The translations under genes were made by a program, and so were the position numbers. DNA of 64,000 bases from a virus (taxonomy: Duplodnaviria; Caudoviricetes): the IMG/VR virus record IMGVR_UViG_3300042483_000388; one strand, given 5' to 3'. The notes below the pieces were generated by a model. That model was not told the DNA's origin. It did not search any database and worked only from the letters and a program-made list of their open reading frames with translations. Of this stretch, positions 380-61,446 are shown one piece after another. The number at the start of each line of letters is the position of its first letter. Position 1 is the stretch's first letter.

Positions 380-595
380 ATGAGCAAAATTAAAATAACG
401 CAAAGACAAATGATAAGGATCCAAAAGTTCCTTAATGAAAGTATTATTATGGAACAAACCTCAGATGAGATTACCAATATCCAAAACAGGTTAAATACTT
501 GTTTTAATGCTGGATTAAAAGCTGATGGTAAAATGGGACCAAAAACCGCATCGGCTATTGAAACATATACTGGTTATGATGTTTCTGTTTCATAA
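380..595 (+). CDS. Leader-bearing small protein with peptidoglycan-binding-like motif
   Basis: Start moved to ATG380 (MSKIKITQRQ...FLNES leader); IQNRLN...LKADGKMGPKTASAI resembles PG_binding_1. Confidence 0.6.
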   Translation: MSKIKITQRQMIRIQKFLNESIIMEQTSDEITNIQNRLNTCFNAGLKADGKMGPKTASAIETYTGYDVSVS

Positions 596-611
596 GTTTA
601 AAAAAAATAAT

Positions 612-637
612 AAGGGAGATCAATCTCCCTTTTTTTA
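612..637 (+). terminator. Rho-independent terminator
   Basis: AGGGAGAT-CA-ATCTCCCT hairpin followed by T-run. Confidence 0.85.
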
Positions 638-652
638 TGCGGTTTTTTTTCT

Positions 653-660
653 TATATTTG
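653..660 (+). promoter_or_regulatory. Bacteroidota-type -7 element TAnnTTTG
   Basis: TATATTTG, 4 nt before ATG665; same spacing recurs at 8 other sites. Confidence 0.75.
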
Positions 661-664
661 TGAT

Positions 665-1054
665 ATGGAAAAAATGATATATCTTGTTAGAGGAATACCG
701 GGAAGTGGTAAATCAACATTTGCAAAACAACTAACTTCAAATGTGTTTGAGGCGGACCATTATTTTTATGATAATGATGGAAACTACAATTTTATTGCGT
801 CTGAAATAAAAGAGGCACATAAAGAGTGTCAACAATATGTTGGATACGCAATGGAATCAAACACACCAAAAATTGCGGTGTCAAACACATTCACACAAGA
901 GTGGGAACTCCAACCTTATTATGAATTGGCAATTAAGTATGGTTATTATGTGACCTCTATTATTGTGGAAAATAGACATGGTGGTGTTAACGAGCATGGA
1001 GTTCCTGAAGATAAGATTCAATTAATGAAAAACCGTTTTGAGATAAAAATATAA
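665..1054 (+). CDS. P-loop kinase, AAA_33/N4BP2-like (polynucleotide-kinase-like)
   Basis: Walker A RGIPGSGKS, EADHYF, VSNTFTQEWE..PY, HGVPEDKI. Confidence 0.8.
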   Translation: MEKMIYLVRGIPGSGKSTFAKQLTSNVFEADHYFYDNDGNYNFIASEIKEAHKECQQYVGYAMESNTPKIAVSNTFTQEWELQPYYELAIKYGYYVTSIIVENRHGGVNEHGVPEDKIQLMKNRFEIKI

Positions 1055-1057
1055 GAA

Positions 1058-1711
1058 ATGAAATTTGATAAAATATTAACTAGTGGTAAGGTATGGATTA
1101 CTTCAGATACGCACTATTCGCACAAAAACATTTGTAGAGGAGTTACGGTTTGGAGAACCATAGATGGGGATATTCCAATCGGTGCAACCAGAGATTTTCC
1201 TAATTTGGATGTAATGGATAGTGTTATTGTTGATAACATTAATGAGAAGGTAGGGCCTGATGATACTTTAATTCACTTGGGTGACGTGGCTTTTGGTGGT
1301 GTTGAAAAGATAGGACAATTTTTGGATCGTTTAGTTTGTAAAAACGTTCACCTTGTTTTGGGTAATCACGATCAGAACATAAAAAAAAATAGAGAGAACA
1401 ACAACGATAAATTTTTATCTATTCAAAACTACTTGGAGGTTAATATTGGTGGTGTTGATTTTGTGTTATCACATTATCCTTTATCAAGTTGGAACCAACT
1501 AAATAAAGGTTCAATTCACCTTCATGGACACGTACATCTACCAAGAAGTAAAAGATTTGGTAAAGGTAAAAAATTAGATGTTGGTATGGATGGTAATAAT
1601 CTTTATCCGTATAGTATAAGTGAGATTGTTCATATGATGGATAAACGATGTGTTGCGTCCGAGATGAATGGAGATCACCACTTAGATGTTATTATTGATC
1701 TTGTGGGTTAA
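1058..1711 (+). CDS. Calcineurin-like metallophosphoesterase
   Basis: SDTHYSH, HLGDV, GNHD, HYP, HGHVH motifs. Confidence 0.85.
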   Translation: MKFDKILTSGKVWITSDTHYSHKNICRGVTVWRTIDGDIPIGATRDFPNLDVMDSVIVDNINEKVGPDDTLIHLGDVAFGGVEKIGQFLDRLVCKNVHLVLGNHDQNIKKNRENNNDKFLSIQNYLEVNIGGVDFVLSHYPLSSWNQLNKGSIHLHGHVHLPRSKRFGKGKKLDVGMDGNNLYPYSISEIVHMMDKRCVASEMNGDHHLDVIIDLVG

Positions 1712-1726
1712 ATCGTAATTACAATA

Positions 1727-1733
1727 TATTTAT
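1727..1733 (+). promoter_or_regulatory. TATTTAT motif (candidate phage late promoter)
   Basis: 4 nt before ATG1738; recurs before leader-bearing genes. Confidence 0.6.
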
Positions 1734-1737
1734 TGGT

Positions 1738-2988
1738 ATGAGAAATATTGTTATAACTGAAAATCAATTAAGGATAATTACGGAAGCTTTAGGGGTTCCT
1801 GATAACATTTTGGATGCTGCCGATATGTTATATGACATTGTTGAAAGAGACATCAAATCAATAAGAGACATTCAAGATGTGTATAACTTTGATGGTGAAA
1901 TAGAATTTGAATTAGGTGATAAGAAAAAAATCAAAATTGATTCATATACTCTTACAGTAAAAATTGAGGAGATTGATGATGAAGAAGGGGTCTTAGATAT
2001 TATCTCAATGGGAATGGAAGGTGCTTTTGGATTTAATAGGGATGTTTATATGAAAGAAAACGAACCCTCAACAATTTTGGGATTAACAATAACATTTGCT
2101 GTTGGTGAAAATTGGAAACCTGAAGGACTTATTCAAAAAATGGAAGAAGAAAGAGACGAACATGTCGCATCTTTAGCTCATGAAATAAAACACAAATACG
2201 ATAAACAATCAAAACAATTTGGTTTAATTGGTCAAGACGCCGAATATCAAGCAACACAAAGAAGAGGTAGTTTTGGAATACCGGTAATTGATAGAGTTTT
2301 TTTTAGATACTTATATTATATTTCCGGTATTGAAAATCTTGTAAGACCAACTGAAGTGGCTTACAAGTTAAAAAGAAAAAATATTACAAAGTCACAATTC
2401 AAAGAATTTTTAGAAAATAATGTAGTTTATAAAGAACTCGTTGAAATTAAAAACTTCACATTTGAAGACTTCATCAATCAATTAAAAGAAAGTGAAGATA
2501 GGTTAGACGTTATTATTGACCACATTGGTGAAGACCCATCCAACATGACAATAGATGAAAAAATTAATAGAGTATTAGAAGTTGCTTATATTGATTTAGT
2601 TAATAATAGAATGCAAATGTTTATGACAATGACGGAACATGGAATGGATGATGTTATAAAATTTGGAACTCAACTTGGTATTTTACCTCCAGGGTTAGAA
2701 GGAAATTTGGAGGGAATTCAAAAGACAGATGCGATTAGACAAAAGTTTTTGAAATATGTTATGAAATACGAAAAAAACCCAACCAAATTTTTTGAAGATG
2801 AAATTGAAAACTTTCAATATGTCGCAAATAAAATGATAAAGAAAATATCAAAACTCTATGCTATGGCAAAAGATGATGAACAAGTTAGTGAATCAATTAT
2901 CAATTGGGAACTTCATCAACAAATTATGGAGAAAAAATACGGTAAAAGAAAAATAGAAACAAAATACAAAAATTGGAATCTTAAATAA
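1738..2988 (+). CDS. Leader-bearing protein with HExxH (zincin-like metallopeptidase motif)
   Basis: MRNIVITENQLRIITE leader; ASLAHEIKHKYD. Confidence 0.55.
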   Translation: MRNIVITENQLRIITEALGVPDNILDAADMLYDIVERDIKSIRDIQDVYNFDGEIEFELGDKKKIKIDSYTLTVKIEEIDDEEGVLDIISMGMEGAFGFNRDVYMKENEPSTILGLTITFAVGENWKPEGLIQKMEEERDEHVASLAHEIKHKYDKQSKQFGLIGQDAEYQATQRRGSFGIPVIDRVFFRYLYYISGIENLVRPTEVAYKLKRKNITKSQFKEFLENNVVYKELVEIKNFTFEDFINQLKESEDRLDVIIDHIGEDPSNMTIDEKINRVLEVAYIDLVNNRMQMFMTMTEHGMDDVIKFGTQLGILPPGLEGNLEGIQKTDAIRQKFLKYVMKYEKNPTKFFEDEIENFQYVANKMIKKISKLYAMAKDDEQVSESIINWELHQQIMEKKYGKRKIETKYKNWNLK

Positions 2989-7360: not shown

Positions 7361-7396
7361 TAATAGAAGTAGTAAACATTATTAGAAAATAATACG

Positions 7397-7404
7397 TATA
7401 TTTG
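7397..7404 (+). promoter_or_regulatory. TAnnTTTG element
   Basis: TATATTTG, 4 nt before ATG7409. Confidence 0.7.
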
Positions 7405-7408
7405 TGGA

Positions 7409-7585: not shown

Positions 7586-7599
7586 AATAATAAATTGTT

Positions 7600-8664: not shown

Positions 8665-8676
8665 AAAAATAATTAA

Positions 8677-8684: not shown

Positions 8685-8688
8685 TAAT

Positions 8689-12296: not shown

Positions 12297-12638
12297 ATGG
12301 CAAGAATTAAAAGATTAACAGAATCAGATTTAACAAGAATTGTTAAACGTGTGATTAAAGAAGAAGATGAAATGGAAGATATGGGTATGTCCATTACAAT
12401 TAGAGGTATATTTGATGAAGTTGTGGAATCTATTAACGAATATGACAAATTTGGTCGTTACAATCCTACAGTTGGGGGTGGTTATGATGAATCTATGAAA
12501 GAAAAGGCAATGGATTTGGCTTTTATTATTATGAGTGACTTACAAGAACTGTCGTTAAGTTCTTCTCATTACGTGGATTACATTCGGGATATTGTTGGTG
12601 AAGAAGAAGATTACGACGACGAAGATGGAGATTATTAA
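12297..12638 (+). CDS. Leader-bearing acidic protein
   Basis: MARIKRLTESDLTRIVKRVIKEE; paralog of 12689. Confidence 0.7.
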   Translation: MARIKRLTESDLTRIVKRVIKEEDEMEDMGMSITIRGIFDEVVESINEYDKFGRYNPTVGGGYDESMKEKAMDLAFIIMSDLQELSLSSSHYVDYIRDIVGEEEDYDDEDGDY

Positions 12639-12688
12639 TAAAACTTGACACTTTACGAAAGAGTGGTATTTATAATTAAAATAATATT

Positions 12689-12985
12689 ATGAGAAAAACT
12701 ATAAAATTAACCGAAGGTGATTTATCACGTATTGTTAGACGAGTTATTAAAGAAGATAACGAAGAAGATAAAATGGGAGGTATGCGTATGTCCATCACAG
12801 TAAAAGATATATTTGAGGCGGTTATAGACGCTCTTGACCAGATGGGAGGGTATCAAGATTCAATGAAAACAGAAGCAATGCAATTGGCAAGAAATATTAT
12901 GTCTAGCATGCAAGACAACTTGGATTACATTACCGATAATTATGAGGAACAACTTTATGATATTCTTGGTGAAGAAGATTTTTAA
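12689..12985 (+). CDS. Leader-bearing acidic protein
   Basis: MRKTIKLTEGDLSRIVRRVIKED; MSIT.K.IF shared with 12297. Confidence 0.7.
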   Translation: MRKTIKLTEGDLSRIVRRVIKEDNEEDKMGGMRMSITVKDIFEAVIDALDQMGGYQDSMKTEAMQLARNIMSSMQDNLDYITDNYEEQLYDILGEEDF

Positions 12986-12995
12986 TTAAAGTGAT

Positions 12996-13460
12996 ATGAA
13001 AATCATAAGACTTACCGAATCTGATCTAACTAATATTGTTAAAACAGTTATTAAGGAAAACTCATTGCGAGATGATTTAATCCAACAGATTAAAGAATAC
13101 GGTTGGAAAGAAACCTCCCAATTTGTTGGGGGATCTGAAAATTTAAAAAAACTTACTGGAATTGAATCACCAATAGATTTTCTTAATTTATTTAATGATT
13201 TGGATGTTATTGATAGTGAAGAAAACCCTAATTTGACTTTATTTAGATATAAAATAGGAAATAATCTAATGGTTCACAATGATGAATTTGATTTTGTTTA
13301 CATCAATTATGGTAAAATTTGGTCATTTTTAGAAAAAGTTTTTGGACTTAACTACGCTGAAATTCAGGAACTAACACAGGAGTGGTTGGGTGAGGTCTAC
13401 GATTTAAAGGGGGTTTATACAGATGAGCAAGATGAGGAGGATGATGAGTTGGTTGGATAA
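12996..13460 (+). CDS. Leader-bearing protein
   Basis: MKIIRLTESDLTNIVKTVIKEN; LIQQIKEYG...VGG.ENLKK module also at start of 46637 ORF. Confidence 0.7.
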   Translation: MKIIRLTESDLTNIVKTVIKENSLRDDLIQQIKEYGWKETSQFVGGSENLKKLTGIESPIDFLNLFNDLDVIDSEENPNLTLFRYKIGNNLMVHNDEFDFVYINYGKIWSFLEKVFGLNYAEIQELTQEWLGEVYDLKGVYTDEQDEEDDELVG

Positions 13461-34221: not shown

Positions 34222-34281
34222 AAGACACGATTTTTTAATGTTAATGTCCAAACAATTTAACAATAAAGTTAAAAAGAAAAG

Positions 34282-44796: not shown

Positions 44797-45444
44797 ATGA
44801 AACACCTAATTAGAAAAATATTGAAAGAGGAGGTAAATAAGAAATACCCAAAACCAACACCAAATGTTGAAAAACTAATATATAATTGGTTAAATAACTA
44901 TTTTTCAGGATCTAAAATGTATCAAATGAAGGACTATGCGTTTAGCTATACTTTTGAATGGTGTAATAATGGTATGGAAATAGCTCAAGCTGTTATAGAT
45001 TTTAACCACGATCACGATGCTTGGAATGACAACAGAAAAACAAGTGAACGAAATTTTGAATCAGGAGAATTTTCAATACCTGAAGATATTATAGATGATT
45101 TGCAAAGTGATATACCGGTAAGAAGAAACTATTTAAGATATATTGTAGAAGAATGGTTTGAAGATACATTGTTAGAAAAAATCAAAAGTGGATTGGGAAG
45201 AAATGACATATCAATTGATAGTTTTTCTGAACACCCTAAAAAGTCTCAAGTTTGTGTTCCTCCTGTTTCAAAACCTGAAGGGGTTACAGATGATGAAATG
45301 ATTGATTTTATTGTCAAAAATACTTTATTTAGAAGAGATGAGTTAGAAAAAAGAATTGTAGATGAACGTGAATGGTTGGAAAAATTATATACAGATAAAC
45401 TGCGTAGCTCAGAAGTGGATAGAGTAAGAGGAAGTAGATGGTAA
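44797..45444 (+). CDS. Leader-bearing hypothetical protein
   Basis: MKHLIRKILKEE. Confidence 0.7.
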   Translation: MKHLIRKILKEEVNKKYPKPTPNVEKLIYNWLNNYFSGSKMYQMKDYAFSYTFEWCNNGMEIAQAVIDFNHDHDAWNDNRKTSERNFESGEFSIPEDIIDDLQSDIPVRRNYLRYIVEEWFEDTLLEKIKSGLGRNDISIDSFSEHPKKSQVCVPPVSKPEGVTDDEMIDFIVKNTLFRRDELEKRIVDEREWLEKLYTDKLRSSEVDRVRGSRW

Positions 45445-45890
45445 TGAGAAAACTTATTAAACACATATTAAAAGAAGAAGTATCTAAACAACAAATAGAT
45501 AAGGGTATTGATATTGTTATTAACGGATTAAAAAAAGAATTTCCATTTGTTGTTGGTTGGAAATTACATGACAATTATGATGAATATATGACAAGTATTT
45601 ATATTGATTTAGTTGTTGAATATGAAAAGGTAAAAGAATTCTATGGTTTGGAAAAAAAACGGATTTATAACATTGAACGTATTAAAAACAAACAAGTGGC
45701 ATTTGTTCTTACCCCATTTGAATATGAAGGTGAATATGATGCGTATATAGAATCGCAGAAATTAGGTGAATATGTGTTTGAGATGTATGATCATATACCT
45801 GACCAATTAAAATTAAAAGAGAGTCGCAGATATGGTTCTGTAAAAGATTACTATAAAGGATTAAAAGTTGATGATTTTATTTTTGTTTAA
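45444..45890 (+). CDS. Leader-bearing hypothetical protein
   Basis: MRKLIKHILKEE; TAATG coupling. Confidence 0.7.
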   Translation: MRKLIKHILKEEVSKQQIDKGIDIVINGLKKEFPFVVGWKLHDNYDEYMTSIYIDLVVEYEKVKEFYGLEKKRIYNIERIKNKQVAFVLTPFEYEGEYDAYIESQKLGEYVFEMYDHIPDQLKLKESRRYGSVKDYYKGLKVDDFIFV

Positions 45891-46213
45891 TGAGAAAACT
45901 AATTAGATACATATTGAAAGAAGAAACAGAAGAAATTGACCAAAAGGTTATGAATTTTCTTGTGCGAAGATATAAAGTTGAAGAAATAAATATTGATGAC
46001 AATATTAGACTTAAAAGGATTCATTTCAAAGTAGATGATGATTATTATAATATTGGAACTTTTGATAATAAAAAAAGACAAGTAAGATTGATTTTGAATA
46101 TGTTAGAAGATAATAATGTTACAGAACCAATTGATAATTTTTCAAATGAAAACAACCCATATAGACAAAAAGTTATTAGAACAATTAAAAAGTTTTTATC
46201 CCAAGTAATGTAA
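45890..46213 (+). CDS. Leader-bearing hypothetical protein
   Basis: MRKLIRYILKEE. Confidence 0.7.
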   Translation: MRKLIRYILKEETEEIDQKVMNFLVRRYKVEEINIDDNIRLKRIHFKVDDDYYNIGTFDNKKRQVRLILNMLEDNNVTEPIDNFSNENNPYRQKVIRTIKKFLSQVM

Positions 46214-46647
46214 TGAAAGAGTTAATTAGACACATATTAAAAGAAGAAGAAAATGAAAACCTAAAAGAAAGGTTTGTTAGATCCGCCCAATCCATTCCTT
46301 ATATTATTGAAAGTAATGTGGACTCAAATCTTTTTACAAATGTAGAAATTGAGAATGTTTATTATAGTGACATAAGTAACGAAATTAGTGGTATGTTATT
46401 AATTACATCTTGGTGTGAAGATCCTGACCTTCTTTCGTTTACAAACCAACTGAAATTAGTTGATAAAGAATTGGGAGCAGTTTTACTTAATTATTCATTT
46501 ACAAGTAACGGTTCTTTTGGGAAAAAGAAAGGTAAATATAATAACTTGATGTGGTGGTTTATTGGTTGTGAATGGAGTGCGGGAGGTGATGATACAATGA
46601 AAATGAAATACGAATTTACACAAGAAGAATTTGACGATGGTGAATAA
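46213..46647 (+). CDS. Leader-bearing hypothetical protein
   Basis: MKELIRHILKEE. Confidence 0.7.
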   Translation: MKELIRHILKEEENENLKERFVRSAQSIPYIIESNVDSNLFTNVEIENVYYSDISNEISGMLLITSWCEDPDLLSFTNQLKLVDKELGAVLLNYSFTSNGSFGKKKGKYNNLMWWFIGCEWSAGGDDTMKMKYEFTQEEFDDGE

Positions 46648-48529
46648 AGATTTAATTAGACATATCTTAAAAGAGGAAACTCGTGACACCAAATCAGAAT
46701 TAATTAGACAAATTAAAGATGAGGGGTTGTATTCTGTTGCCGAATTAGTTGGGGGATTAGACAACCTAAAGAAGATACTAAAAGATAACCCATCAATGGT
46801 TGAAAGAATTGAAAACCAAAAAGGGTTAGTTAAAGTGTCTTGGACAACGGATGGGGACGATCCATCAATTGTTTTACCATTTAAAATTATTGGTGCAGGG
46901 TGGAATATATGGATGACTAATAGTTGGCCAATAGTTAATATTATTTATAATGAAAATAAATTAACTAAAGATGAGAATTATAAATTTAAAGATTTTTTAT
47001 ATGATTCTTTTAATGATGAAAGTTCAGTAAGAGTTATTAAACTTAATAGTGATGAACCTAGAATGCATAAAACCTATGTTCAGTTGGGGGAAATAAATGG
47101 TAAAACTGCACAAAAAAATACAACCGATTTAAGTCGTAGTTATGATCTGTCTGATATTCGGGAAATAGTAGAAACGTTAGGTGATGATAATATGCTAAAA
47201 GAGGGGGTAGATAACACTAAAGAAAATCAAAAAAATTTAAGAACAATTGACAAATCTGAAAACAAAAAACTTAAGTTGGTTAAGAATATTATATATGACA
47301 TGTTTGATACTGTTATTGATTTAGAATACGACTCTAAAATAAATGAGATTATGGTTTACCATAATAAAAAAGAAAAGTTAGAGATTTCAGAAATATGTGA
47401 TACTATAAATAATTTTACCAATTTAAATGTTGTTCCCTGGTTTGAGTATGATAAAAATAGAATTGGAAAGGAACCTGATTTTTATTTAGATGTTGATGAC
47501 TATGATGAAGCAATAAATGAAAATTATAGTCCTGCCGGCAAAGAAATAACTCCAAACAAAATTGTTATACATAAATCCAATCCAAAGTTTAGAGATAGAA
47601 TATCAAATGAAGGGTTAAAAGCAAGTGCTGGTGAATGTTATAAAATATACGCAGGGTATGGTGAAAAATGTATTCCAGCAATATTTGCCACTAACTCAAC
47701 AAATAAAAGGGCTTGGTTTGACTCAACATACGACGATGATGTATGGGAAATCAATACTGAAATGATACCTAATGTTAAGTGGTATAAAGATAGACATTTT
47801 GAATCAACTAAGAAACATATAGTTACGTTTGATAACATACCATCAGAAGCAATAGAATTAATGAGTGAAGGTACTGGAAGAGATATAGTAAGAGAATCAA
47901 GTGAAAACAAAGACATGGACAATGACATAGAAAAAAACTTAAAGGTGATTAGAATGTTATTAAAACAGGTTAATTGGGAAGGACTTTGTAATATATGGGT
48001 AGAATATAATCCTGTTGATAAGGATTATGAAATCAGGTCTAAGTCAATGCGAAGAGATTATTATCTTCCACAAAATGTGGTTGACGAAATTTTTAAAGAA
48101 TTAAATTTTATAGAAGAATCAATAAAAGCTATGGGTCTCAGACCTTATATATTTTCAGCATCGTATGTTGAAAATTGTGAAGATGAGGTTGAGTTTATGA
48201 ATGAAAGTATAAATAAAAGTGATGAGAAAAGAAACAAGATAATAGAAAAAATTATGGACAACATTATTTTTCCTGAATATAATCATATAATTTGTGGTTA
48301 TGATGTAAAAAATGATGAGGTTTTTAATGAACCTGTGGTTAATGTTACTTTTATTGGTGGGTATGGAACAAAACTTTGGCCTACCACACAAGGAATTCAA
48401 AAAATGTATAGTGATGTTTTAGATGAAATTTGGAATGTTATTTACGATTACATTAATATTCCAGTTGGGGTTACTATGAAAACAACACCCAAATGTGATG
48501 AACAAGAAAATATTTATCTTAGAAAATAA
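46637..48529 (+). CDS. Leader-bearing polyprotein-like ORF of about five modules
   Basis: DLIRHILKEE leader; internal MLKEG, AINEN, IVRES, FMNES boundaries. Confidence 0.7.
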   Translation: MVNKDLIRHILKEETRDTKSELIRQIKDEGLYSVAELVGGLDNLKKILKDNPSMVERIENQKGLVKVSWTTDGDDPSIVLPFKIIGAGWNIWMTNSWPIVNIIYNENKLTKDENYKFKDFLYDSFNDESSVRVIKLNSDEPRMHKTYVQLGEINGKTAQKNTTDLSRSYDLSDIREIVETLGDDNMLKEGVDNTKENQKNLRTIDKSENKKLKLVKNIIYDMFDTVIDLEYDSKINEIMVYHNKKEKLEISEICDTINNFTNLNVVPWFEYDKNRIGKEPDFYLDVDDYDEAINENYSPAGKEITPNKIVIHKSNPKFRDRISNEGLKASAGECYKIYAGYGEKCIPAIFATNSTNKRAWFDSTYDDDVWEINTEMIPNVKWYKDRHFESTKKHIVTFDNIPSEAIELMSEGTGRDIVRESSENKDMDNDIEKNLKVIRMLLKQVNWEGLCNIWVEYNPVDKDYEIRSKSMRRDYYLPQNVVDEIFKELNFIEESIKAMGLRPYIFSASYVENCEDEVEFMNESINKSDEKRNKIIEKIMDNIIFPEYNHIICGYDVKNDEVFNEPVVNVTFIGGYGTKLWPTTQGIQKMYSDVLDEIWNVIYDYINIPVGVTMKTTPKCDEQENIYLRK

Positions 48530-52374: not shown

Positions 52375-52782
52375 ATGAACTTACAAGAACATATAATAAA
52401 GGTTTTAAGGGAAATGGTCATTGAATCCAAAGGTTGGGGAGATTCAAATCAAAAATTAGAAAGAACTTTTAAATTTAAAGATTTTAATGGTGCAATTAAT
52501 TTTGTTAATAAAGTTGCAAAAATTGCTGAAACACAAAATCACCATCCCGATATTGAAATAAAATATAACAAAGTAAAAGTATCGATAACCGATCACGAAA
52601 AGGGTAGGGTATCTGAAAAATGTCATAGATTAGTAAAATCTATTGATAAACTTAAAGAACCACATAAAGAAGAACAAAACGAATCTGAACTAACTGAAAA
52701 ATGTTGGACTGGATATACTCAAAAAGGTATGAAAACTATGTTTGGTAAGAGATACCCTAATTGTGTAAAGAAAACAAAATAA
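52375..52782 (+). CDS. Leader-bearing pterin-4-alpha-carbinolamine dehydratase-like protein with basic C-terminal module
   Basis: LERTFKFKDF...A..FVNKVA..AE..NHHPDI...ITDH; tail LTEKCWTGYTQKGMK. Confidence 0.78.
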   Translation: MNLQEHIIKVLREMVIESKGWGDSNQKLERTFKFKDFNGAINFVNKVAKIAETQNHHPDIEIKYNKVKVSITDHEKGRVSEKCHRLVKSIDKLKEPHKEEQNESELTEKCWTGYTQKGMKTMFGKRYPNCVKKTK

Positions 52783-52783
52783 T

Positions 52784-53560
52784 ATGAACCTACAAGAACA
52801 AATATCAAAAATAAGGTCAATGATGATCTCCGAGGAGATGGTTCAATCAGATGCTTGGAAATCAATTAAACAAACTTTAGATATCCTTAAAGATAAGAAA
52901 AAAGTATTACTATTGAGTTGTTCTAACAGGTATAATTTTGATGAAAAGAATATAGACATACCAAAGTCCAAAATGATTGCAATGTACTTGAACGATGAGT
53001 TGGGGGATAAGTCAGTTTTAATTGATGTTCCTGAACTTAAAATACTTCCTTGCGAGGGTAATGTATCAAGAAAGGATGGTAACTCTTGCGGGTTATTAAA
53101 ATCCGCTCTTAAAGATAAGAAAAAGAACCCATCAGGAGATCACAGATGTTGGGTTAATATTAATGAACCTTCAGATGAATTATGGAAGATATCAAGAGAG
53201 TTATTTGAGTCAGATGCCGTTATATTCTTTAGTTCTGTAAGATGGGGTCAGGCAAATATGTATTACCAAAACTTAATAGAGAGATTAAATTGGTTGGAGA
53301 ATAGACACACAACATTGGGAGAATCTAACATTATCAAAGATATTGAAACAGGATTTATTTGTGTGGGTCAGAATTGGAATGGGGAAGTCGTAACCAAAAC
53401 ACAAAAAGAAGTACATGAATTCTACGGATTCAAACCAAACGATAGTTTATATTGGAATTGGCAATATACAAAAGATGAGAATGATGAGACACAAAAATCA
53501 TATAAAGCGTCACATAATAAATTTATAAAGGATACAAAATTACCTGAACAAAAAAAGTAA
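52784..53560 (+). CDS. Leader-bearing flavodoxin-fold protein (NAD(P)H-dependent FMN reductase-like)
   Basis: LSCSNR, PCEGNVS, SDAVIFFSSVRWG, VGQNW. Confidence 0.7.
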   Translation: MNLQEQISKIRSMMISEEMVQSDAWKSIKQTLDILKDKKKVLLLSCSNRYNFDEKNIDIPKSKMIAMYLNDELGDKSVLIDVPELKILPCEGNVSRKDGNSCGLLKSALKDKKKNPSGDHRCWVNINEPSDELWKISRELFESDAVIFFSSVRWGQANMYYQNLIERLNWLENRHTTLGESNIIKDIETGFICVGQNWNGEVVTKTQKEVHEFYGFKPNDSLYWNWQYTKDENDETQKSYKASHNKFIKDTKLPEQKK

Positions 53561-53561
53561 T

Positions 53562-53897
53562 ATGAATTTACAAGAGAACATACAAAGAATTAGAGAAATG
53601 ATGGGGGTTGACGAATCTTTTTTAGATTGGTTCAAATCACCCAATAGTAATGATGATAGTGATCTTAAAAAATCTGATGAAGAAAGATTTACTTGTACCG
53701 ATTGTGGTGAAAAAGATTACAATATGTATATGGTTAATAATGATATATGGGAAAAACATGGTAATGATAAATTAACTTTATGTAAGAGTTGTTTAGAAAA
53801 AAGAATGGGTAGGAAATTAACCAAAAAAGATATTTCACAACATAAAGATGCGTTAGTTAATATACATAATCCTGAAATGAAAGATTTAGAATATTAA
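53562..53897 (+). CDS. Leader-bearing Cys-motif protein
   Basis: MNLQENIQRIREMMGVDE; CTDC...LCKSCLEKRMGRKL. Confidence 0.7.
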   Translation: MNLQENIQRIREMMGVDESFLDWFKSPNSNDDSDLKKSDEERFTCTDCGEKDYNMYMVNNDIWEKHGNDKLTLCKSCLEKRMGRKLTKKDISQHKDALVNIHNPEMKDLEY

Positions 53898-53898
53898 T

Positions 53899-54468
53899 AT
53901 GAACCTACAAGAAAACATATCAAGAATTAAATCAATGATGGGAGTTATAAATGAAAACATAAATTTAGACGACATAACTTTTTTTAAAACATCACAGGGC
54001 AGCAAATATATAAGAATGTCAGATGGTAGATTAAGACGATGGAAATCCCACCATTCAAACACAGGAGGTGAAGATAAAGGACTACATGGGTGGAGTGATA
54101 TGTCAATATTTGTAGATCCAATATACGATAAAGAAGCCAATTCACCACAATTTTTAATAGGTAAAGGTTTTAAAATTGGGTTATCAAAAACACAAAATGG
54201 TAAAATGGTTGTTGTTGTTTTTGATAATGGTAATTGGAGACCAGCAACTTGGAAAGATGCATATCCGGGATTTATTAAAATAAACCCTGAGAATGAAAAT
54301 AAACCATTGGCTTGGGAATATATTAAAGAACCTAAAGTGGGTTATAATGTTGTTGATTTTAATGTTAAAAATAATCAATTAAAAAGTTATCATTTTGGTA
54401 GTGAAGTTTCAGAAGTAAGTGAATTTACTGATGAAGATAAAAAATTATTCTTTCCTTCTTTTTTTTAA
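53899..54468 (+). CDS. Leader-bearing hypothetical protein
   Basis: MNLQENISRIKSMMGVINE. Confidence 0.7.
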   Translation: MNLQENISRIKSMMGVINENINLDDITFFKTSQGSKYIRMSDGRLRRWKSHHSNTGGEDKGLHGWSDMSIFVDPIYDKEANSPQFLIGKGFKIGLSKTQNGKMVVVVFDNGNWRPATWKDAYPGFIKINPENENKPLAWEYIKEPKVGYNVVDFNVKNNQLKSYHFGSEVSEVSEFTDEDKKLFFPSFF

Positions 54469-54469
54469 T

Positions 54470-55804
54470 ATGGAAATCAAATCAATCAATGTTATCGATG
54501 GAAAAAACAAATGGAGTGAGTCCAAAGATAAGCTTATTCATATGGTTTTAGATTTGGGTGAATTTGAAGAAAAACCATCAGATAAAATAGAAGGATTTTA
54601 TGAAAGAATAAAAGAATATTTACCATCATTAAAAAGTCACAGATGTTCCGAAGGAAAACCAGGAGGGTTTTTTAAAAGAATTAAAGATGGAACATGGATG
54701 GGACACATTATAGAACATGTGGCATTAGAATTACAAACACTTGCCGGCATGAATACAGGATGGGGAAGAACAAGAGGAGTTAAAGGACAAAAAGGTGTGT
54801 ATAATGTTGTGTTTAATTATGAAAACAAAGACAGTGGAAAATTGGCGGCAAGAGAGGCTTTTAATGTTGTAAATGATATTATAAATGATATAGATCCAAA
54901 AATAGATAGAATAGTTAAAAAACTAAAACCAAAAAACTTAAAAGAATCCATAAGAAGAATATTAAGGGAAGAAACAAATCCATTTAAAGTTTCTGATCCA
55001 TCAACAAGAATTGAAGAAGATAGAGTTCAAATTCGTTTAGGTAGAAATATGTATAATCATTTTGGTAAAATTCAAAATATTATTATTATGGTTGATGACC
55101 AAGATATTACCAGTGAAAACAATGTTCCTGATCTTGGACAAATGAATATTGTAATAAATGATGGTGAAATATATGTGGGAGATATTGTTATTCCTGAAAA
55201 ATATAGAGGACAAGGAATTGCAACAATAGTATATCAAAAAATATCAGACTACTTTGGTCTTCCAATTGTTAATTCAAAAACAAAAGGACGAAACCAATTA
55301 GATCAAGGTGGACAGATTTGGAAAAATAGAGAAAAATTTGAACCAAAAAGAAACCTACAAGAATCCATAAAAAGAATATTAAGGGAAGAAACCAATATGA
55401 AACCCGTTCTAAACAATCTACTTAATATTTTGTTTGATGGTTTTGATGATATCTATTATAATTGGGCTCATTATAATTGTGGAATGGGTATTTGTTGTGA
55501 CCCTTATGCTGTTGGTTTTGTTCTTCCAACAAATAATCACGATGATTATTTATTTAAATTGGTCGATGGTAATAAATATGATGATGATGGTGATTACCCT
55601 AAAGACCTTAGTGGTGATTTACCTGAAGTATGTTATGAAATGCCTGATATTAAAAACCCAAACTTTAATTTCATAATATTTTATGAAGTCTTTGCTGAAG
55701 AAATTGGTAACTACTTGGGGCGCAAAGGTAATTGGAAAATTGAGTTATTAGAGTTAATAAATGAAAAGTTTGGTTGTAAAGCCACTAATATAATTTTTAT
55801 ATGA
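54470..55804 (+). CDS. Polyprotein-like ORF: cyanophycin synthetase N-domain, GNAT-like module, Cys-containing module
   Basis: HRCSEGKPGGFFKRIKDGTWMGHIIEHVALELQ; IPEKYRGQGIA; internal leaders NLKESIRRILREE and NLQESIKRILREE. Confidence 0.75.
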   Translation: MEIKSINVIDGKNKWSESKDKLIHMVLDLGEFEEKPSDKIEGFYERIKEYLPSLKSHRCSEGKPGGFFKRIKDGTWMGHIIEHVALELQTLAGMNTGWGRTRGVKGQKGVYNVVFNYENKDSGKLAAREAFNVVNDIINDIDPKIDRIVKKLKPKNLKESIRRILREETNPFKVSDPSTRIEEDRVQIRLGRNMYNHFGKIQNIIIMVDDQDITSENNVPDLGQMNIVINDGEIYVGDIVIPEKYRGQGIATIVYQKISDYFGLPIVNSKTKGRNQLDQGGQIWKNREKFEPKRNLQESIKRILREETNMKPVLNNLLNILFDGFDDIYYNWAHYNCGMGICCDPYAVGFVLPTNNHDDYLFKLVDGNKYDDDGDYPKDLSGDLPEVCYEMPDIKNPNFNFIIFYEVFAEEIGNYLGRKGNWKIELLELINEKFGCKATNIIFI

Positions 55805-57147
55805 AAGAACACATAAGAAAAATATTAAGGGAATCAATTGACAAATCAGAAAACAAAAAACTTGAGTTGGTAACAAAAATGATTCATCAATTTTTTGATG
55901 GGGTTAGTTTTATTGAAATTAAAAAATATGAAAATAAACCATTGATAAGAGTTTATTTTGATAACGATGAAAAAGCGGCTAATGAAGAGATTTATTTCGC
56001 GGAACAAATACAAGATAAAATCTATGAATATACGGGTATTAAACTTATTCCGTATTGGCACAATGTTCAGTATAACACTGATGTAGATTTTCGTTTGGAC
56101 GCCATCAAACTAAAATACGATAATGAAGGAAATGTTATAAATGAATCTGAAGAAAAACAACCAAAGTATCTTAATATAATTAAAAATCTTATAGAACCAT
56201 TCAAAGAAGAAGAAGATTGTGTTTGCGAAATTAGAGTAACATCCGAAGACGATTTTTATGCTATTTATTTGGTATTTGGAACGGAAGAACTAAATGATAA
56301 ATTTTCTAGTTTTCTTCAAAGAGCTGAATATACAAGAAATTTAAGAAATAATGTTAAAAACACAATTAAAGATTATTTGCCAATAGATAATTTATATGTT
56401 GGATCCATATCAAAACCAAATTGCGAATGGAAACCCATGAATGAATCTACATTCTTTATTAGAAGGGTTGATACGAGTTTAATGGATAAAAAATTCTTTG
56501 AAAATTTAAATTATATTACCAGTATATTTTTAAAAAGATATAATGAGGGAAAAAGATTTGATATGTTTCAATTTGAAACTAAGATGCTAAATTATCTTAT
56601 TGATGGTTATCGTAATGAGTTAACTGATGGTGGGTTAAATGATTTTCCATATGATGAGGTTTATGAATTCCTTTCAAACCATTTTCACAATAAGATTAAA
56701 GATAGATATGACACTTTTTTTGGTCGTAATATAAATGAATCAGAAAATAAAAAACAATCCTTATTAAAGACCATAGAAAAGGAAGGGTTATATAATTTTA
56801 TCGAAATGTCTGGATTATCACCTGAAGACATTAAACCAATTTTAGTTAAATCACCAATTATTAGAGAAATATTAAAACAATATATTAGAGATTTTGTTTT
56901 AAATCGTGGTAATAAATGGGGTGATAATAGTGGAATACTTAGTGGATATGAAATCCAATTAAGTAAAAACAAATATGTTGATAATATAGAAATTATTGAT
57001 GTTGATAGTATAGCGGTTACAATATGGGTGTATGATGCATATGGACATAAAGAAAAAAAAACATCAATTAACGCCCTTACTAATGATGAGTTATTAACAA
57101 TTATAGATTGGATGACGGAAACAATTGAAAATGGTGATTGGGATTGA
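55801..57147 (+). CDS. Leader-bearing polyprotein-like ORF of four modules
   Basis: MKEHIRKILRES; internal INES, MNES, INES boundaries. Confidence 0.7.
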   Translation: MKEHIRKILRESIDKSENKKLELVTKMIHQFFDGVSFIEIKKYENKPLIRVYFDNDEKAANEEIYFAEQIQDKIYEYTGIKLIPYWHNVQYNTDVDFRLDAIKLKYDNEGNVINESEEKQPKYLNIIKNLIEPFKEEEDCVCEIRVTSEDDFYAIYLVFGTEELNDKFSSFLQRAEYTRNLRNNVKNTIKDYLPIDNLYVGSISKPNCEWKPMNESTFFIRRVDTSLMDKKFFENLNYITSIFLKRYNEGKRFDMFQFETKMLNYLIDGYRNELTDGGLNDFPYDEVYEFLSNHFHNKIKDRYDTFFGRNINESENKKQSLLKTIEKEGLYNFIEMSGLSPEDIKPILVKSPIIREILKQYIRDFVLNRGNKWGDNSGILSGYEIQLSKNKYVDNIEIIDVDSIAVTIWVYDAYGHKEKKTSINALTNDELLTIIDWMTETIENGDWD

Positions 57148-58978: not shown

Positions 58979-59141
58979 TGAAAACAAATATGGATAAAGA
59001 CATAAATATGAGATTATTAGAGAAAGAAAATAACATCAGTAAAGTTGTTGACAGATATTTAAGGATGAAACTAAAAAGAGGGGTCAAAAAAATAACGGGA
59101 ATAAGAATAAAGTAATCTGAAAATAAAAATAGTTAATTAAG

Positions 59142-59174
59142 ATCCTCCACTTGTAAAGATGGGGGATTTTTTTT
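59142..59174 (+). terminator. Rho-independent terminator
   Basis: ATCCTCCA...TGGGGGAT plus T-run. Confidence 0.75.
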
Positions 59175-59180
59175 ATATTA

Positions 59181-59459
59181 GTGGTAATGAAAGACCTAAC
59201 TGGATATATAGAATCATTGCTCGAAAGCGTTAACAACACCTGTGAGGTAAATTATGTAAACAATATCTACGAGGTTAATGTTATAAGAGACTATCGTAAT
59301 TGTGAGGAGAGATATAAAATTATGGTTTACCTTAATCATAATATAGTAATGGGCATAATGAAAAATTTAAAAGTATATCTTCCAAAATCATTATATGTTA
59401 TTAGAGTTAAAGAAATTAATATCCCAATATCATTTATACCACTACATTATGCAAAGTAA
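59181..59459 (+). CDS. Hypothetical protein
   Basis: ORF track. Confidence 0.55.
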   Translation: MVMKDLTGYIESLLESVNNTCEVNYVNNIYEVNVIRDYRNCEERYKIMVYLNHNIVMGIMKNLKVYLPKSLYVIRVKEINIPISFIPLHYAK

Positions 59460-59727
59460 ATTAGAACATAAGGTGGAAAAATACTTCAAGATGGTAAATC
59501 CATTACCCTATGGTGATATTAAGGTAATTATAAAAGACCCAATGGGGATTTGTCTGATCACAATATATGTTAGCAGACATGAGATGTCATGGAAATATTA
59601 CGGAAGAAAAGGAAAAGATTATACGATGTTAGAACAGATAAGGCAGGATATGGAATATATGTTTCCTTATTGTTTTAAAATATCGTGCGAAGTAATTGAA
59701 TATAAGATTAACCCATATATAAAGTAA
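59395..59727 (+). CDS. Hypothetical protein (true start probably the downstream MQSK)
   Basis: ORF track. Confidence 0.5.
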   Translation: MLLELKKLISQYHLYHYIMQSKLEHKVEKYFKMVNPLPYGDIKVIIKDPMGICLITIYVSRHEMSWKYYGRKGKDYTMLEQIRQDMEYMFPYCFKISCEVIEYKINPYIK

Positions 59728-59753
59728 TAGTGGGGATTTTTTATACATAAGGA

Positions 59754-59760
59754 TATTTAT
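59754..59760 (+). promoter_or_regulatory. TATTTAT motif
   Basis: 5 nt before ATG59766. Confidence 0.6.
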
Positions 59761-59765
59761 CATAT

Positions 59766-60389
59766 ATGAACCTACAAGAAGACATACAAAGAATTAAATC
59801 AATGATGGGATTATTGATTGAATCTACAGATAAATTATCATCTATGAGTGATGATACGGTTTTAGTCAGTGACTATGTGAAAAATCACATCAAAGACCAT
59901 AACAAATTTGGAACAGGATCTACTTTTAGAGAGGGTATTTCTGATGAAGAAATTATGAATTTTGTCAATCAAGTAATTAGTAATCAAGAACTTGGTGATG
60001 GTGGAGCTTTTGAAATTGAGGTTCCTGATATAGGATTTGATCTTGTCTTACCATATGAAGACGCTAAAAAATTAGAGAACGCCGAAGAATCATCAACGAT
60101 CAAAAAAGAAGGGCCAAATGAAATTGAAGTTCCATTGATAATAACTTCTCAATCGGCTGATGACTTCAAGACAAATAAATTAACTTTGGTTATTAGAAAA
60201 TCTAATCCTCAGTTTCTTCCTGATGATGTTAAAGAAGATGAAGAATTATTAAATAAAATAAATGATGGTAAAGTCTATTCGTTATTAACGGCATTCCCTG
60301 GTAACCCAAATATACCAAGAGCGTCTGAATGGAACGGACAATACGCGGTTGTTGAACCTAAAAAAGAAGAAAGACTAGATATTCAATAA
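59766..60389 (+). CDS. Leader-bearing hypothetical protein
   Basis: MNLQEDIQRIKSMMGLLIES. Confidence 0.7.
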   Translation: MNLQEDIQRIKSMMGLLIESTDKLSSMSDDTVLVSDYVKNHIKDHNKFGTGSTFREGISDEEIMNFVNQVISNQELGDGGAFEIEVPDIGFDLVLPYEDAKKLENAEESSTIKKEGPNEIEVPLIITSQSADDFKTNKLTLVIRKSNPQFLPDDVKEDEELLNKINDGKVYSLLTAFPGNPNIPRASEWNGQYAVVEPKKEERLDIQ

Positions 60390-61117
60390 TGAACCTACAA
60401 GAGAACATATCAAGGATTAAATCAATGATGGGATTAAATGAGGTATCAAATCCATATTCTATTACTTGGTTAGAACCAACAAGAGAATATTTTAACCAAG
60501 AGTTAGAGGAGTTACTTGGAAATGAGATGAGGTTTAGTAAAAATGAGTTCTTCCACCCACAAAATTACGATTTAATGTATTCCATATTTCCACATACATT
60601 TAAAATGATTGCGGAACACTCAAAAGGATCTGACGTAGAAAACGAAGAAGAGATTAAAGACATTCTATTAGATAAGGAAATATCTGATTTAATGGATGAT
60701 TGGAAGGATTTTAGACAAGTTCTATTAAAAGATAATCAATCACAAATGGAAGGGGTTAATTTGTTTAATAAAGGTATAATGGAAGAATGGGATGATGACA
60801 AAATAAATAACACATTTTATATGGGCAGATTCTCAAAAGAGTTTCCAGGAATGTTTAAAGATACCACATCATCAGGCTTAATTAAACAAATGACAGGTGA
60901 TGATGGGGAAGTTAAACAACACCACAAAGGTTATGTCGATAACATAGAAAAGTTAAGAAACGAAAAACATAGAGAACTCCCAGCACCATTTGTAATGAAA
61001 TTACCAACAGGTGGAAGAGAAGGAAATGAATATACATTAATTGGTGGTCACAAACGATCAACAATTGCCGACCAACTAAACGTGCCAATATCAGTTTGGT
61101 TTATAGATCTATCGTAA
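60389..61117 (+). CDS. Leader-bearing protein with C-terminal ParB/Srx-like motif
   Basis: MNLQENISRIKSMMGLNE; PAPFV...YTLIGGHKR. Confidence 0.6.
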   Translation: MNLQENISRIKSMMGLNEVSNPYSITWLEPTREYFNQELEELLGNEMRFSKNEFFHPQNYDLMYSIFPHTFKMIAEHSKGSDVENEEEIKDILLDKEISDLMDDWKDFRQVLLKDNQSQMEGVNLFNKGIMEEWDDDKINNTFYMGRFSKEFPGMFKDTTSSGLIKQMTGDDGEVKQHHKGYVDNIEKLRNEKHRELPAPFVMKLPTGGREGNEYTLIGGHKRSTIADQLNVPISVWFIDLS

Positions 61118-61446
61118 TGAACCTACAAGAGAACATAAGAAGAATAATAAGAGAAGAGTCGGGACTTAGTCCAAGGTTACTTAGAAGAGTTCCTATGGAT
61201 AAGTTAGAGAAGTCTTTTGGACACGCATTAAAACAAGCAACAATAAAGTATTATAGATATCGACCCATATTAAATGATGATTACAAATTACATTTTTTTA
61301 CAAAGGAAGTTGTAGAATTATTATTAGATTCAATATCGCATTTAATGTATCCAACAATAAAAGGGTCGTGGTATGATGAAGAGTTTTCAAATGTAAAAAA
61401 ACACTTCAAAGATAGAATAACAGAATGGTTGGAAACCTTAGATTAA
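61117..61446 (+). CDS. Leader-bearing hypothetical protein
   Basis: MNLQENIRRIIREES; start moved to 61117. Confidence 0.65.
   Translation: MNLQENIRRIIREESGLSPRLLRRVPMDKLEKSFGHALKQATIKYYRYRPILNDDYKLHFFTKEVVELLLDSISHLMYPTIKGSWYDEEFSNVKKHFKDRITEWLETLD

What the first reader, a model, noticed from the sequence alone, without database searches (positions are those of the whole stretch)
380..61446. About 30 unrelated proteins share three families of N-terminal leaders ending in [I/L/M]-x-E: candidate capsid-targeting signals
Seen: family A MNLQE.I.RIKSMMG..[I/L]xE (42932, 52375, 52784, 53562, 53899, 59766, 60389, 61117, variant 29392), conserved even as DNA (ATGAACCTACAAGA). Family B MKI[I/V][I/L][S/T]E.Q (380, 1738, 31286, 32395, 32799, 33353, 33646, 34282, 39616) and the related LTESDL.RIV..VIKE (12297, 12689, 12996). 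Family C M..LI[R/K].IL[K/R]EE (41265, 44797, 45444, 45890, 46213, 46637, 55801). The domains downstream are unrelated: lysozymes, DHH, PCD, flavodoxin, peptidase, ORFans. Knowledge: T4 internal proteins carry a short capsid-targeting sequence removed by prohead protease gp21 after [I/L]-x-E, and phiKZ-like phages also process head proteins after Glu. Inference: these are modular packaging tags that load a large cargo set into the head for delivery at infection.
Basis: partly seen in the sequence, partly recalled or inferred. Interest (0 to 1): 0.82.

Follow-up and report, generated by a model that had tools for sequence, protein, structure and literature searches.

The report
Shared head-loading leaders on phage proteins
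About a quarter of the genes in this stretch of an uncultured giant T4-like phage start with the same few short peptide tags, each ending in the cutting site of the phage's head protease, so they are most likely an enlarged version of T4's "load into the capsid, then cut off" signal; packaging itself is untested.

Summary
In the window, 26 ORFs begin, exactly at their first Met, with one of four leader types (A, B, B2, C). One more is a divergent variant (29392) and one is doubtful (380). Two further copies lie inside ORF 54431-55804. The types grade into each other.

The conservation acts on the peptide, since synonymous codons vary freely. Family A heads 49 unrelated protein bodies in IMG/VR and family B2 heads 69. 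Conservation stops at a [L/I]-x-E: 91% of family A leaders have one there, against 16% of background windows.

The window's own genome is not held. A 292-kb relative (G005) has 51 of 342 genes with such leaders, and 50 of these lie in units driven by TATTTAT. That motif also precedes the scaffold, protease and candidate tail genes, so it is probably the late promoter. None lies in an early-type unit. All 9 large leader-bearing contigs tested encode a T4 gp21-type protease.

Orthologues swap leader types. In one fusion only the L-x-E site survives. All 108 usable DHH-protein homologues keep [LIV]-x-E directly before the conserved body.

Best reading: a greatly expanded T4-type capsid-targeting propeptide system. 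Cleavage and packaging are inferred, not shown. This scan has reported similar tags in other T4-like phages.

The parts
1738..2988 (+). Leader B gene (MRNIVITENQ...), 416 aa, own TATTTAT
   Evidence: no Pfam or PHROG hit
12297..13460 (+). Three tandem leader B2 genes (12297-12638, 12689-12985, 12996-13460): ..RLTESDLxRIVxRVIKE
   Evidence: (47-51 bits)
29392..30255 (+). Divergent A-like leader (MENLIKEDVSRMLSIMGVQTLNE), 287 aa
   Evidence: not detected by the HMM; TATTTAT upstream
31286..34590 (+). Run of six leader B genes (31286, 32395, 32799, 33353, 33646, 34282): MKII[IL][ST]ExQ
   Evidence: (25-28 bits)
39616..40542 (+). Leader B gene with a C-terminal phage lysozyme domain
   Evidence: PF00959, E=1.3e-17
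41265..42854 (+). Leader C gene, DHH-like body. Predicted cut after ISE-19, before SGIR
   Evidence: The G005 orthologue carries a B leader
42932..44443 (+). Leader A gene, 503 aa. Predicted cut after IKE-20, before QKISLP
   Evidence: The L002 fusion keeps only LKE|QKISLP
44797..48529 (+). Run of five leader C genes (44797, 45444, 45890, 46213, 46637): M+xLI+xILKEE
52375..54468 (+). Four leader A genes (52375 PCD enzyme, 52784, 53562, 53899): MNLQExIxRI+xMMG.hxE
54431..55804 (+). Multi-module ORF (CphA_N-like, GNAT-like and Cys-rich modules) joined by two internal leaders, at nt 54935 (NLKESIRRILREET) and nt 55352 (NLQESIKRILREET)
   Evidence: The last module is a separate leader-bearing gene in G005 (244257-244712)
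55801..57147 (+). Leader C gene, 448 aa. The G005 orthologue has an A/C hybrid leader
59766..61446 (+). Three leader A genes (59766, 60389, 61117)
   Evidence: (35-38 bits)
380..595 (+). Doubtful member (MSKIKITQRQ...), inside the longer ORF 242-595
   Evidence: no HMM hit

Best explanation
The leaders are T4-type capsid-targeting propeptides, greatly expanded in number.

Proposed mechanism: each tagged protein is made late. Its N-terminal amphipathic helix docks it into the scaffold core of the assembling prohead. The gp21-type (S77) prohead protease then cuts after the [L/I]-x-E that ends the leader, and probably also after the first L-x-E near residues 5-9. This leaves the mature protein inside the head, to leave with the DNA at infection. 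Internal leaders mark cut points of polyproteins.

Shown: the leaders exist, they are N-terminal, they are selected as peptides, they are modular and interchangeable, they end in [L/I]-x-E, and they share a promoter motif with head and tail genes. Close relatives have the protease and an MCP propeptide with the same motif.

Inferred: TATTTAT is the late promoter; cleavage; docking; packaging; delivery.
For: 1. Specificity. HMM hits fall only at the first Met of + strand ORFs. In G005 there are 51 N-terminal hits against 7 hits anywhere in reversed sequences.

2. Peptide-level selection. Synonymous codons are mixed at invariant residues: Asn AAC/AAT 77/31, Leu TTA/CTA 56/47, Gly GGG/GGA/GGT 28/28/23.

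3. Modularity. Family A has 147 proteins in 49 unrelated body clusters, and information content falls to background after residue 20. Family B2 has 110 proteins in 69 clusters.

4. Cleavage motif.
- Family A: 91 of 100 have [LIVM]xE ending at residues 16-23, against 16% of background windows; P3 is Ile 49, Leu 35.
- Family B2: 98 of 110 have it, 95 of them with the Glu at the same offset.
- DHH-protein homologues: 108 of 108 have [LIV]xE directly before the conserved body start, while the extension varies from 5 to 25 aa.

5. Protease. Peptidase_S77 is present in 9 of 9 large leader-bearing contigs.

6. G005 head module. It runs portal, core-like protein, protease, scaffold, MCP. The MCP aligns to T4 gp23 such that the mature end extrapolates to IKE-44|N, with INE-60|A nearby. 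A core-like protein has 4.1% [LI]xE against 1.3% genome-wide.

7. Timing. TATTTAT precedes the scaffold and protease genes and candidate sheath, tube and fibre genes. Leader genes: 50 of 51 in TATTTAT units and 0 in TAnnTTTG units in G005, p=1e-4. In the window, 22 against 3, compared with 24 against 35 for other genes, p=8e-5.

8. Split of the two functions. In L002 the 42932 body is fused behind the DHH protein. The helix is lost but LKE|QKISLP is kept.

9. A basic (pI 9.8) protein with a C-like leader (5 bits or more in the HMM scan) lies next to the MCP in G005.

10. Precedent. T4 internal proteins share only a CTS (PMC3012670). Alt is cut at ITE-6 and LTE-619, and multiple cuts within propeptides are usual (PMC5694885).
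Against: - No virion proteome or N-terminal data exist for any member, so cleavage and packaging are unobserved.
- The window's own head genes could not be read because the genome is not held. The protease and MCP evidence comes from relatives that are 75-95% identical in patches.
- The bodies are acidic on average (median pI 5.5, against 5.7 for other genes), unlike T4's basic internal proteins.
- Some bodies are metabolic-looking enzymes (PCD, a cyanophycin-synthetase N-domain), for which a role inside a capsid is not obvious.
- About 15% of all genes is an order of magnitude more cargo types than in any studied phage.
- The 20-residue conservation far exceeds what a cleavage site needs, and its receptor is unknown.
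- [L/I]-x-E is a short motif, common in K/E/I-rich proteins.
- The complex prediction of protease with leader gave no answer.
Confidence: 0.58

Rival explanations
1. The leader is an address for something other than the capsid. As an amphipathic docking helix it would bring many late proteins to a common hub, for example a chaperone, a membrane assembly site or another phage-made compartment. The terminal h-x-E would be either incidental or cut by another protease.
For: Conservation runs to 20 residues, far beyond a cleavage site. The bodies are not basic and include enzymes. Several leader types coexist in one genome, which could mean several destinations.
Against: The link to S77 protease genomes is 9 of 9. 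The same motif occurs at the inferred MCP maturation site. The L002 fusion keeps exactly the h-x-E junction and loses the helix. No candidate hub gene was identified.
Confidence: 0.15
2. The leaders are propeptides without a cargo role. The prohead protease or another late protease cuts them to activate or time late enzymes, or the tagged proteins are transient core or scaffold accessories that are degraded and expelled rather than delivered to the host.
For: T4 gp22, gp67 and gp68 are cut into fragments that leave the head (PMC5694885). The [LI]xE-rich core-like protein of G005 fits this pattern. Many tagged proteins are small ORFans.
Against: Folded enzyme bodies (PCD, lysozyme, DHH-like) are kept under selection behind the leader. 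The DHH family has more than 3,700 homologues, the 120 best at 65-98% identity, which does not look like disposable scaffold.
Confidence: 0.12
3. The shared gene start is mainly a recombination joint. The conserved DNA at the 5' ends, together with the TATTTAT box, would let cassettes be exchanged between phages. The peptide itself would have little function.
For: The genes sit in tandem cassette arrays. The window and G005 are mosaic. Leaders are swapped between orthologues, and fusions and fissions occur at leaders.
Against: Amino acids are invariant while synonymous codons vary freely, so selection acts on the peptide. Internal copies are kept in frame. The h-x-E position is conserved. Recombination at leaders is probably a consequence, as proposed for T-even internal-protein loci (my own knowledge: Repoila et al. 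1994).
Confidence: 0.05
4. The leader is a recognition sequence for a modifying enzyme, in the manner of a RiPP leader or the radical-SAM/SPASM-linked tag that this scan reported in RB43-like phages. Alternatively it is a translation-initiation enhancer.
For: An earlier finding of this scan (e1-127136) linked a different shared N-terminal tag to a radical-SAM enzyme. Many of these genes have very short 5' leaders after TATTTAT.
Against: Radical_SAM is absent from G005 (99% complete) and G001 (98% complete), both rich in leaders. Many leader genes lie inside operons without a promoter of their own. The candidate sheath and tube genes, the portal and the MCP lack the tag. Codon data argue against an RNA-level role.
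Confidence: 0.04

Closest known systems
Phage T4 capsid targeting sequence (CTS) of internal proteins IPI/IPII/IPIII and the Alt propeptide, removed by prohead protease gp21 (Mullaney & Black 1996; PMC3012670; PMC5694885)
   Same: A short N-terminal tag on otherwise unrelated proteins. It ends in [L/I]-x-E. Relatives encode a gp21-family protease. The tagged genes share the promoter motif of the head genes. Alt's ITE-6 site closely resembles family B (MKIIITE) and the short form on DHH homologues (MKKLI.E).
   Different: - Scale: 27 genes in 64 kb and about 15% of genes in a relative, against about 5 in T4.
- The leaders are longer (up to 22 aa), with strongly conserved helices in four intergrading types.
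- Internal copies occur in polyproteins.
- The bodies include enzymes and are not basic.
- No experimental proof exists, and sequence homology to MKTYQEFIAE cannot be established at this length.
Proteolytic maturation of head, inner-body and ejection proteins in phiKZ, 201phi2-1 and SPN3US (S80 proteases; PMC5694885, PMC7411985, PMC10052503)
   Same: Giant phages that pack many different proteins (about 50 head proteins in SPN3US). Processing occurs after Glu in a three-residue motif, often at several sites within a propeptide. Paralogues share identical N-termini.
   Different: P3 there is Ala, Ser or Gly, whereas here it is Ile or Leu. The protease here scores as S77 (T4 type). Only 8 SPN3US head proteins are processed, and no family-wide conserved leader is described.
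Hypervariable internal-protein loci of T-even phages, in which diverse ORFs keep only the CTS (PMC3012670; Repoila et al. 1994, from my own knowledge)
   Same: A conserved leader with exchangeable bodies, arranged in arrays. This suggests arms-race cargo.
   Different: Here there are dozens of loci spread over about 70 kb, several leader types, and leader swapping on the same body.
Polyvalent proteins injected with phage or plasmid DNA (cited in PMC7824862)
   Same: Multi-module proteins made of unrelated enzymatic domains and delivered with the DNA. ORF 54431-55804 and the L002 DHH fusion follow this logic.
   Different: Here the modules are joined by leader or cleavage motifs and also occur as separate genes. 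No homology was tested.

Membership tests
T4-type CTS/propeptide system | The genome encodes a gp21-family (Peptidase_S77) prohead protease | tested here: met
   9 of 9 large contigs with family A leaders score above the Pfam cut-off. PHROG head maturation protease in G005. Caveat: the window's own genome is not held, so this is shown for relatives only.
T4-type CTS/propeptide system | A short N-terminal leader ending in [L/I]-x-E | tested here: met
   27 of 27 window leaders. Family A 91 of 100 against 16% background. Family B2 98 of 110. DHH homologues 108 of 108.
T4-type CTS/propeptide system | The same leader on otherwise unrelated proteins | tested here: met
   49 (family A) and 69 (family B2) unrelated body clusters. 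Leader types are swapped on homologous bodies.
T4-type CTS/propeptide system | Expressed late, together with head genes | tested here: inconclusive
   The TATTTAT motif is shared with scaffold and protease genes and candidate sheath, tube and fibre genes. Leader genes lie 50 against 0 and 22 against 3 in such units. That the motif is a late promoter is inferred; there are no expression data.
T4-type CTS/propeptide system | The leader is removed in the virion (new N-terminus after the Glu) | not testable with these tools
   No proteome of any member. The complex prediction gave no answer.
T4-type CTS/propeptide system | The leader is sufficient to load a foreign protein into the prohead | not testable with these tools
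   Needs an experiment.
phiKZ/SPN3US S80 processing system | Cleavage motif with a small P3 residue (A/S/G-x-E) and an S80 protease | tested here: not met
   P3 is Ile or Leu in 84 of 91 (family A), 92 of 98 (family B2) and 107 of 108 (DHH). The protease matches S77.
Radical-SAM/RiPP-like recognition leader | Co-occurrence with a radical-SAM maturase | tested here: not met
   No Radical_SAM match in G005 or G001, which are 99% and 98% complete.
Sec/Tat or T9SS secretion signal | A hydrophobic core or a C-terminal sorting domain | tested here: not met
   The leaders are charged amphipathic helices. True Sec signals and a T9SS tail occur on other genes, such as 3148-5889.

The most novel reading that the evidence does not exclude
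A lineage of 230-335 kb T4-like phages, probably of Bacteroidota, devotes about 15% of its genes to capsid-loaded cargo: enzymes, ORFans and polyproteins that are cut into modules inside the head. Several intergrading leader classes address the cargo and may set the loading site or copy number. If so, the leader would be a sequence key that lists an unusually large virion-delivered effector set directly from metagenomes.
Probability: 0.35. Interest if true: 0.8.

Novelty: new variant of a known kind. Interest (0 to 1): 0.6.

Why it matters
If the tags work as in T4, a simple sequence rule would identify the proteins that a whole clade of abundant, uncultured giant phages carries into its hosts. 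The rule is a leader followed by [L/I]-x-E at the start of a gene that follows the TATTTAT (probable late) promoter motif. There are dozens of such proteins per genome and well over a hundred body families, nearly all of unknown function. These are prime candidates for anti-defence and host-takeover factors.

The finding also gives testable material for an old open question, namely what a CTS binds to. The leaders here are long, strongly conserved and of several types. Natural fusions separate the docking helix from the cut site.

Practically, such leaders could serve as packaging tags for protein delivery in phages of Bacteroidota.

Tried and rejected
- No whole genome is held for the window, so its own head genes were not read.
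- The GenBank phage collection has no close relative at DNA level or for two leader-bearing proteins. tblastn with the leaders alone found nothing, but the queries were too short to be meaningful.
- An 80-nt match to Prochlorococcus phage P-TIM68 lies inside a large hypothetical gene and led nowhere.
- PHROGs gave no hit for 10 leader-bearing bodies. Pfam gave nothing for most and nothing for the G005 scaffold and core-like proteins.
- Complex prediction of the G005 protease with the first 50 residues of the 42932 protein gave no answer (score 0.00). This is not evidence either way.
- The leader HMMs do not hit the scaffold, MCP, portal or protease of G005 at 5 bits or more. I therefore dropped the idea that the leader copies a scaffold helix.
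- A test for basic bodies, as in T4 internal proteins, was negative.
- The radical-SAM partner idea was rejected.
- The RNA-level or translation-enhancer idea was rejected on codon data.
- The cultured Flavobacterium phage immuto lacks these four leader types and the DHH protein.
- Searching papers for the motif strings found nothing. Searches on capsid targeting with jumbo phages, and on T4-like Flavobacterium phages and virion proteomes, surfaced no paper on these leaders among those listed; one jumbo-phage review was checked by term search.


Full report
**What the window is.** The window is 30% GC and almost entirely + strand coding. No whole genome is held and no close relative exists in the GenBank phage set.

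Three lines point to a large T4-like myophage, probably of Bacteroidota:
- TAnnTTTG boxes lie in front of runs of small genes. I read these as Bacteroidota-type -7 promoter boxes from my own knowledge.
- The protein at 3148-5889 has a T9SS C-terminal sorting domain (weak, below the Pfam cut-off) and a Sec-like N-terminus.
- A 292-kb IMG/VR contig, IMGVR_UViG_3300034117_001582 (here G005, fetched whole as L134-L148), matches the window in mosaic patches at 68-96% nucleotide identity. It carries a T4-order head module: portal, core-like genes, S77 protease, scaffold and a gp23-like MCP.

The nearest cultured MCPs are about 40% identical: Flavobacterium phage immuto and Microcystis phage Mel-JY01. 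Other first-stage notes on this genome mention sheath, tube, scaffold and MCP genes 90-130 kb upstream. I could not read those stretches and treat the notes as unverified.

**The observation.** All listed starts translate as described. HMMs of the four leader types were scanned over the six-frame translation. They hit 26 ORFs, all on the + strand and all at the first Met, with nothing elsewhere except two in-frame internal copies at nt 54935 and 55352. 29392 is a loose variant and 380 is doubtful.

The types are not separate families. The internal copies (NLKESIRRILREET, NLQESIKRILREET) and 61117 (MNLQENIRRIIREE) join A to C. G005's orthologue of the C-type gene 55801 starts MTLQESIKKILRES. 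B2 (RLTESDLxRIV) parallels A (NLQENIxRIK).

**Beyond the window.** Many lie on 200-335 kb contigs, often in tandem arrays, and both types occur on the same contigs. G005 has 51 of 342 called genes with an N-terminal hit of 5 bits or more, against 7 hits anywhere in reversed sequences.

**Peptide, not nucleic acid.** At invariant residues of family A the synonymous codons are mixed: Asn 77/31, Leu TTA/CTA 56/47, Arg AGA/AGG/CGN 68/34/6, and Gly split three ways. This argues against an RNA or DNA-level signal as the main constraint.

**Modular.** The 147 family A proteins fall into 49 body clusters with no detectable similarity at E<1e-5. Information content is high to residue 19 and at background from residue 21. 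The 110 dereplicated B2 proteins fall into 69 clusters.

The same body takes different leaders:
- The DHH-like protein has a C leader in the window (41265) and a B leader in G005.
- Homologues of the 42932 C-terminal domain carry A-variant, B2-like or a further leader type.
- An AlphaFold model of the PCD enzyme (52375) puts a helix at residues 3-13 and a disordered linker before the fold, which starts at residue 26. Confidence in the leader part is low.

**The end of the leader is a protease-type site.**
- 91 of 100 dereplicated family A leaders have [LIVM]-x-E ending at residues 16-23 (81 at residues 18-19), against 16% of equal-sized windows in the bodies. P3 is Ile 49, Leu 35.
- The spacing varies (GLNE, GVINE, GLLTE) while h-x-E is kept.
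- B2 has the motif in 98 of 110, and in 95 of them the Glu sits at the same offset.
- The DHH-like protein has more than 3,700 homologues. Among the best 120, all 108 with a recognisable body start have [LIV]-x-E immediately before the conserved [SG]G[IL]R. P3 is Ile 87, Leu 20. P2 varies freely. The extension ranges from 5 to 25 residues. The short form (MKKLI.E) resembles T4 Alt, which gp21 cuts at ITE-6 (PMC5694885).

**Protease and head genes.** Peptidase_S77 scores above the Pfam cut-off in all 9 large leader-bearing contigs tested. G005's MCP aligns to T4 gp23 such that the mature gp23 N-terminus extrapolates to IKE-44|N. INE-60|A and three more h-x-E sites lie in the first 60 residues. 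The protein between portal and protease has 10 [LI]xE in 242 residues, which is 4.1% against 1.3% genome-wide. The gene next to the MCP starts MIERTIKNILKE, scores 5 bits or more against the leader HMMs, and encodes a pI 9.8 protein, like an internal protein.

**Timing.** TATTTAT lies within 45 nt upstream of the ATG of 99 G005 genes, most often starting 11-13 or 18-26 nt from it. These include the scaffold, protease and core-like genes, and genes I take to be sheath, tube and fibre genes from their N-termini and sizes. By analogy with T4's TATAAATA I read it as the late promoter; this is an inference.

In G005, 50 of 51 leader genes lie in TATTTAT units and none in TAnnTTTG units (Fisher p=1e-4). 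In the window the counts are 22 against 3, compared with 24 against 35 for other genes (p=8e-5). The two long early-type operons of the window (7409-12173 and 15773-21527) contain no leader.

**Fusions separate two functions.** ORF 54431-55804 strings three modules joined by internal leaders without a Met. The last module is a free-standing leader gene in G005. G005's 531-aa gene 244713-246308 also has an internal copy.

In contig L002 the 42932 body is fused behind the DHH protein. At the junction the helix is gone, but FLLKE|QKISLP matches the window's GLIKE|QKISLP. This is what one expects if the helix is an address needed once per polypeptide and h-x-E is a cut site needed at each module.

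**Against, or neutral.**
- Nothing shows cleavage or packaging.
- The bodies are not basic.
- Some bodies are metabolic-type enzymes.
- About 50 cargo types per genome is unprecedented.
- The receptor of the helix is unknown.
- The protease-leader complex prediction gave no answer.
- A radical-SAM partner, as found by this scan for another tag, is absent from two near-complete genomes.

**Known and new.** The CTS idea, and diverse T-even internal proteins sharing only a CTS, are established (PMC3012670, PMC5694885). phiKZ-like phages process many head proteins after Glu, but with a small P3 residue and an S80 protease (PMC5694885). I found no paper describing these leaders.

This scan has reported comparable tags in several other uncultured T4-like phages and in other windows of this same genome. 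The cultured Flavobacterium phage immuto lacks these four types. It has its own shared N-termini, one of them on a gene between portal and protease, which offers an experimental system.

**Verdict.** The capsid-targeting propeptide reading is the best supported (about 0.6) but rests on comparative inference. It is a much enlarged and elaborated variant of a known kind.

Noticed in passing
window, e.g. 1720-1737, 41247-41264, 42912-42931 (TATTTAT); 650-664, 7395-7408, 8675-8688, 15758-15772 (TAnnTTTG): Two upstream motifs partition the genes. TATTTAT, 11-26 nt before the ATG, marks the leader, lysis-like and (in G005) virion genes. TA..TTTG marks runs of small ORFan genes. They are probably the late and early promoters. 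Many TATTTAT genes would have almost no 5' UTR.
   Followed up: partly
window 3148-5889 (+): A 913-aa protein with a Sec-type signal, an Ig_7 domain and a T9SS C-terminal sorting domain (weak), behind a TATTTAT box. A phage protein apparently built for export by the host's type IX secretion system. It has an orthologue in G005 (276036-277904).
   Followed up: no
window 54431-55804 (+): A cyanophycin-synthetase N-terminal-like domain (E=1.6e-44) fused to a GNAT-like module and a Cys-rich module. An unusual domain for a phage.
   Followed up: partly
G005 (L134-L148): genes at 14316, 169964, 218828, 228294, 232694; also L007 from nt 9764: A further shared N-terminal type, roughly [LF]..S.EEK..I..[LM]H, also behind TATTTAT. 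My four HMMs do not cover it. A first-stage note on another window mentions it too.
   Followed up: no
Flavobacterium phage immuto MW353175.1 (L270-L277): 1803, 103806, 117631, 118632; 102294, 102880, 113188, 123355; 25061, 111675: This cultured T4-like Flavobacterium phage has its own sets of shared N-termini: MENFDLKKFLVENKLT (4 genes), MKKSQLRQIIKE-like (4 genes, one between portal and protease) and MKKQILSEQF (2 genes).
   Followed up: partly
L002 (IMGVR_UViG_3300010354_000147) ORF from nt 8519; L006 ORF from nt 3678: The DHH-like protein occurs fused to different C-terminal modules (955 and 781 aa). Its >3,700 homologues, the best 120 at 65-98% identity, suggest a core and perhaps virion protein of a very large aquatic phage group.
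   Followed up: partly
window 52695-52774: 80 nt at 84% identity to Prochlorococcus phage P-TIM68, inside a 1006-aa hypothetical gene there. Unexplained, possibly a small shared domain.
   Followed up: partly
window 6806-7357: Another first-stage note flags a CRISPR-like array of 36-nt repeats read in frame within ORF 6533-7360. I did not examine it. This stretch matches G005 near 580-1190 at 68-78% identity.
   Followed up: no
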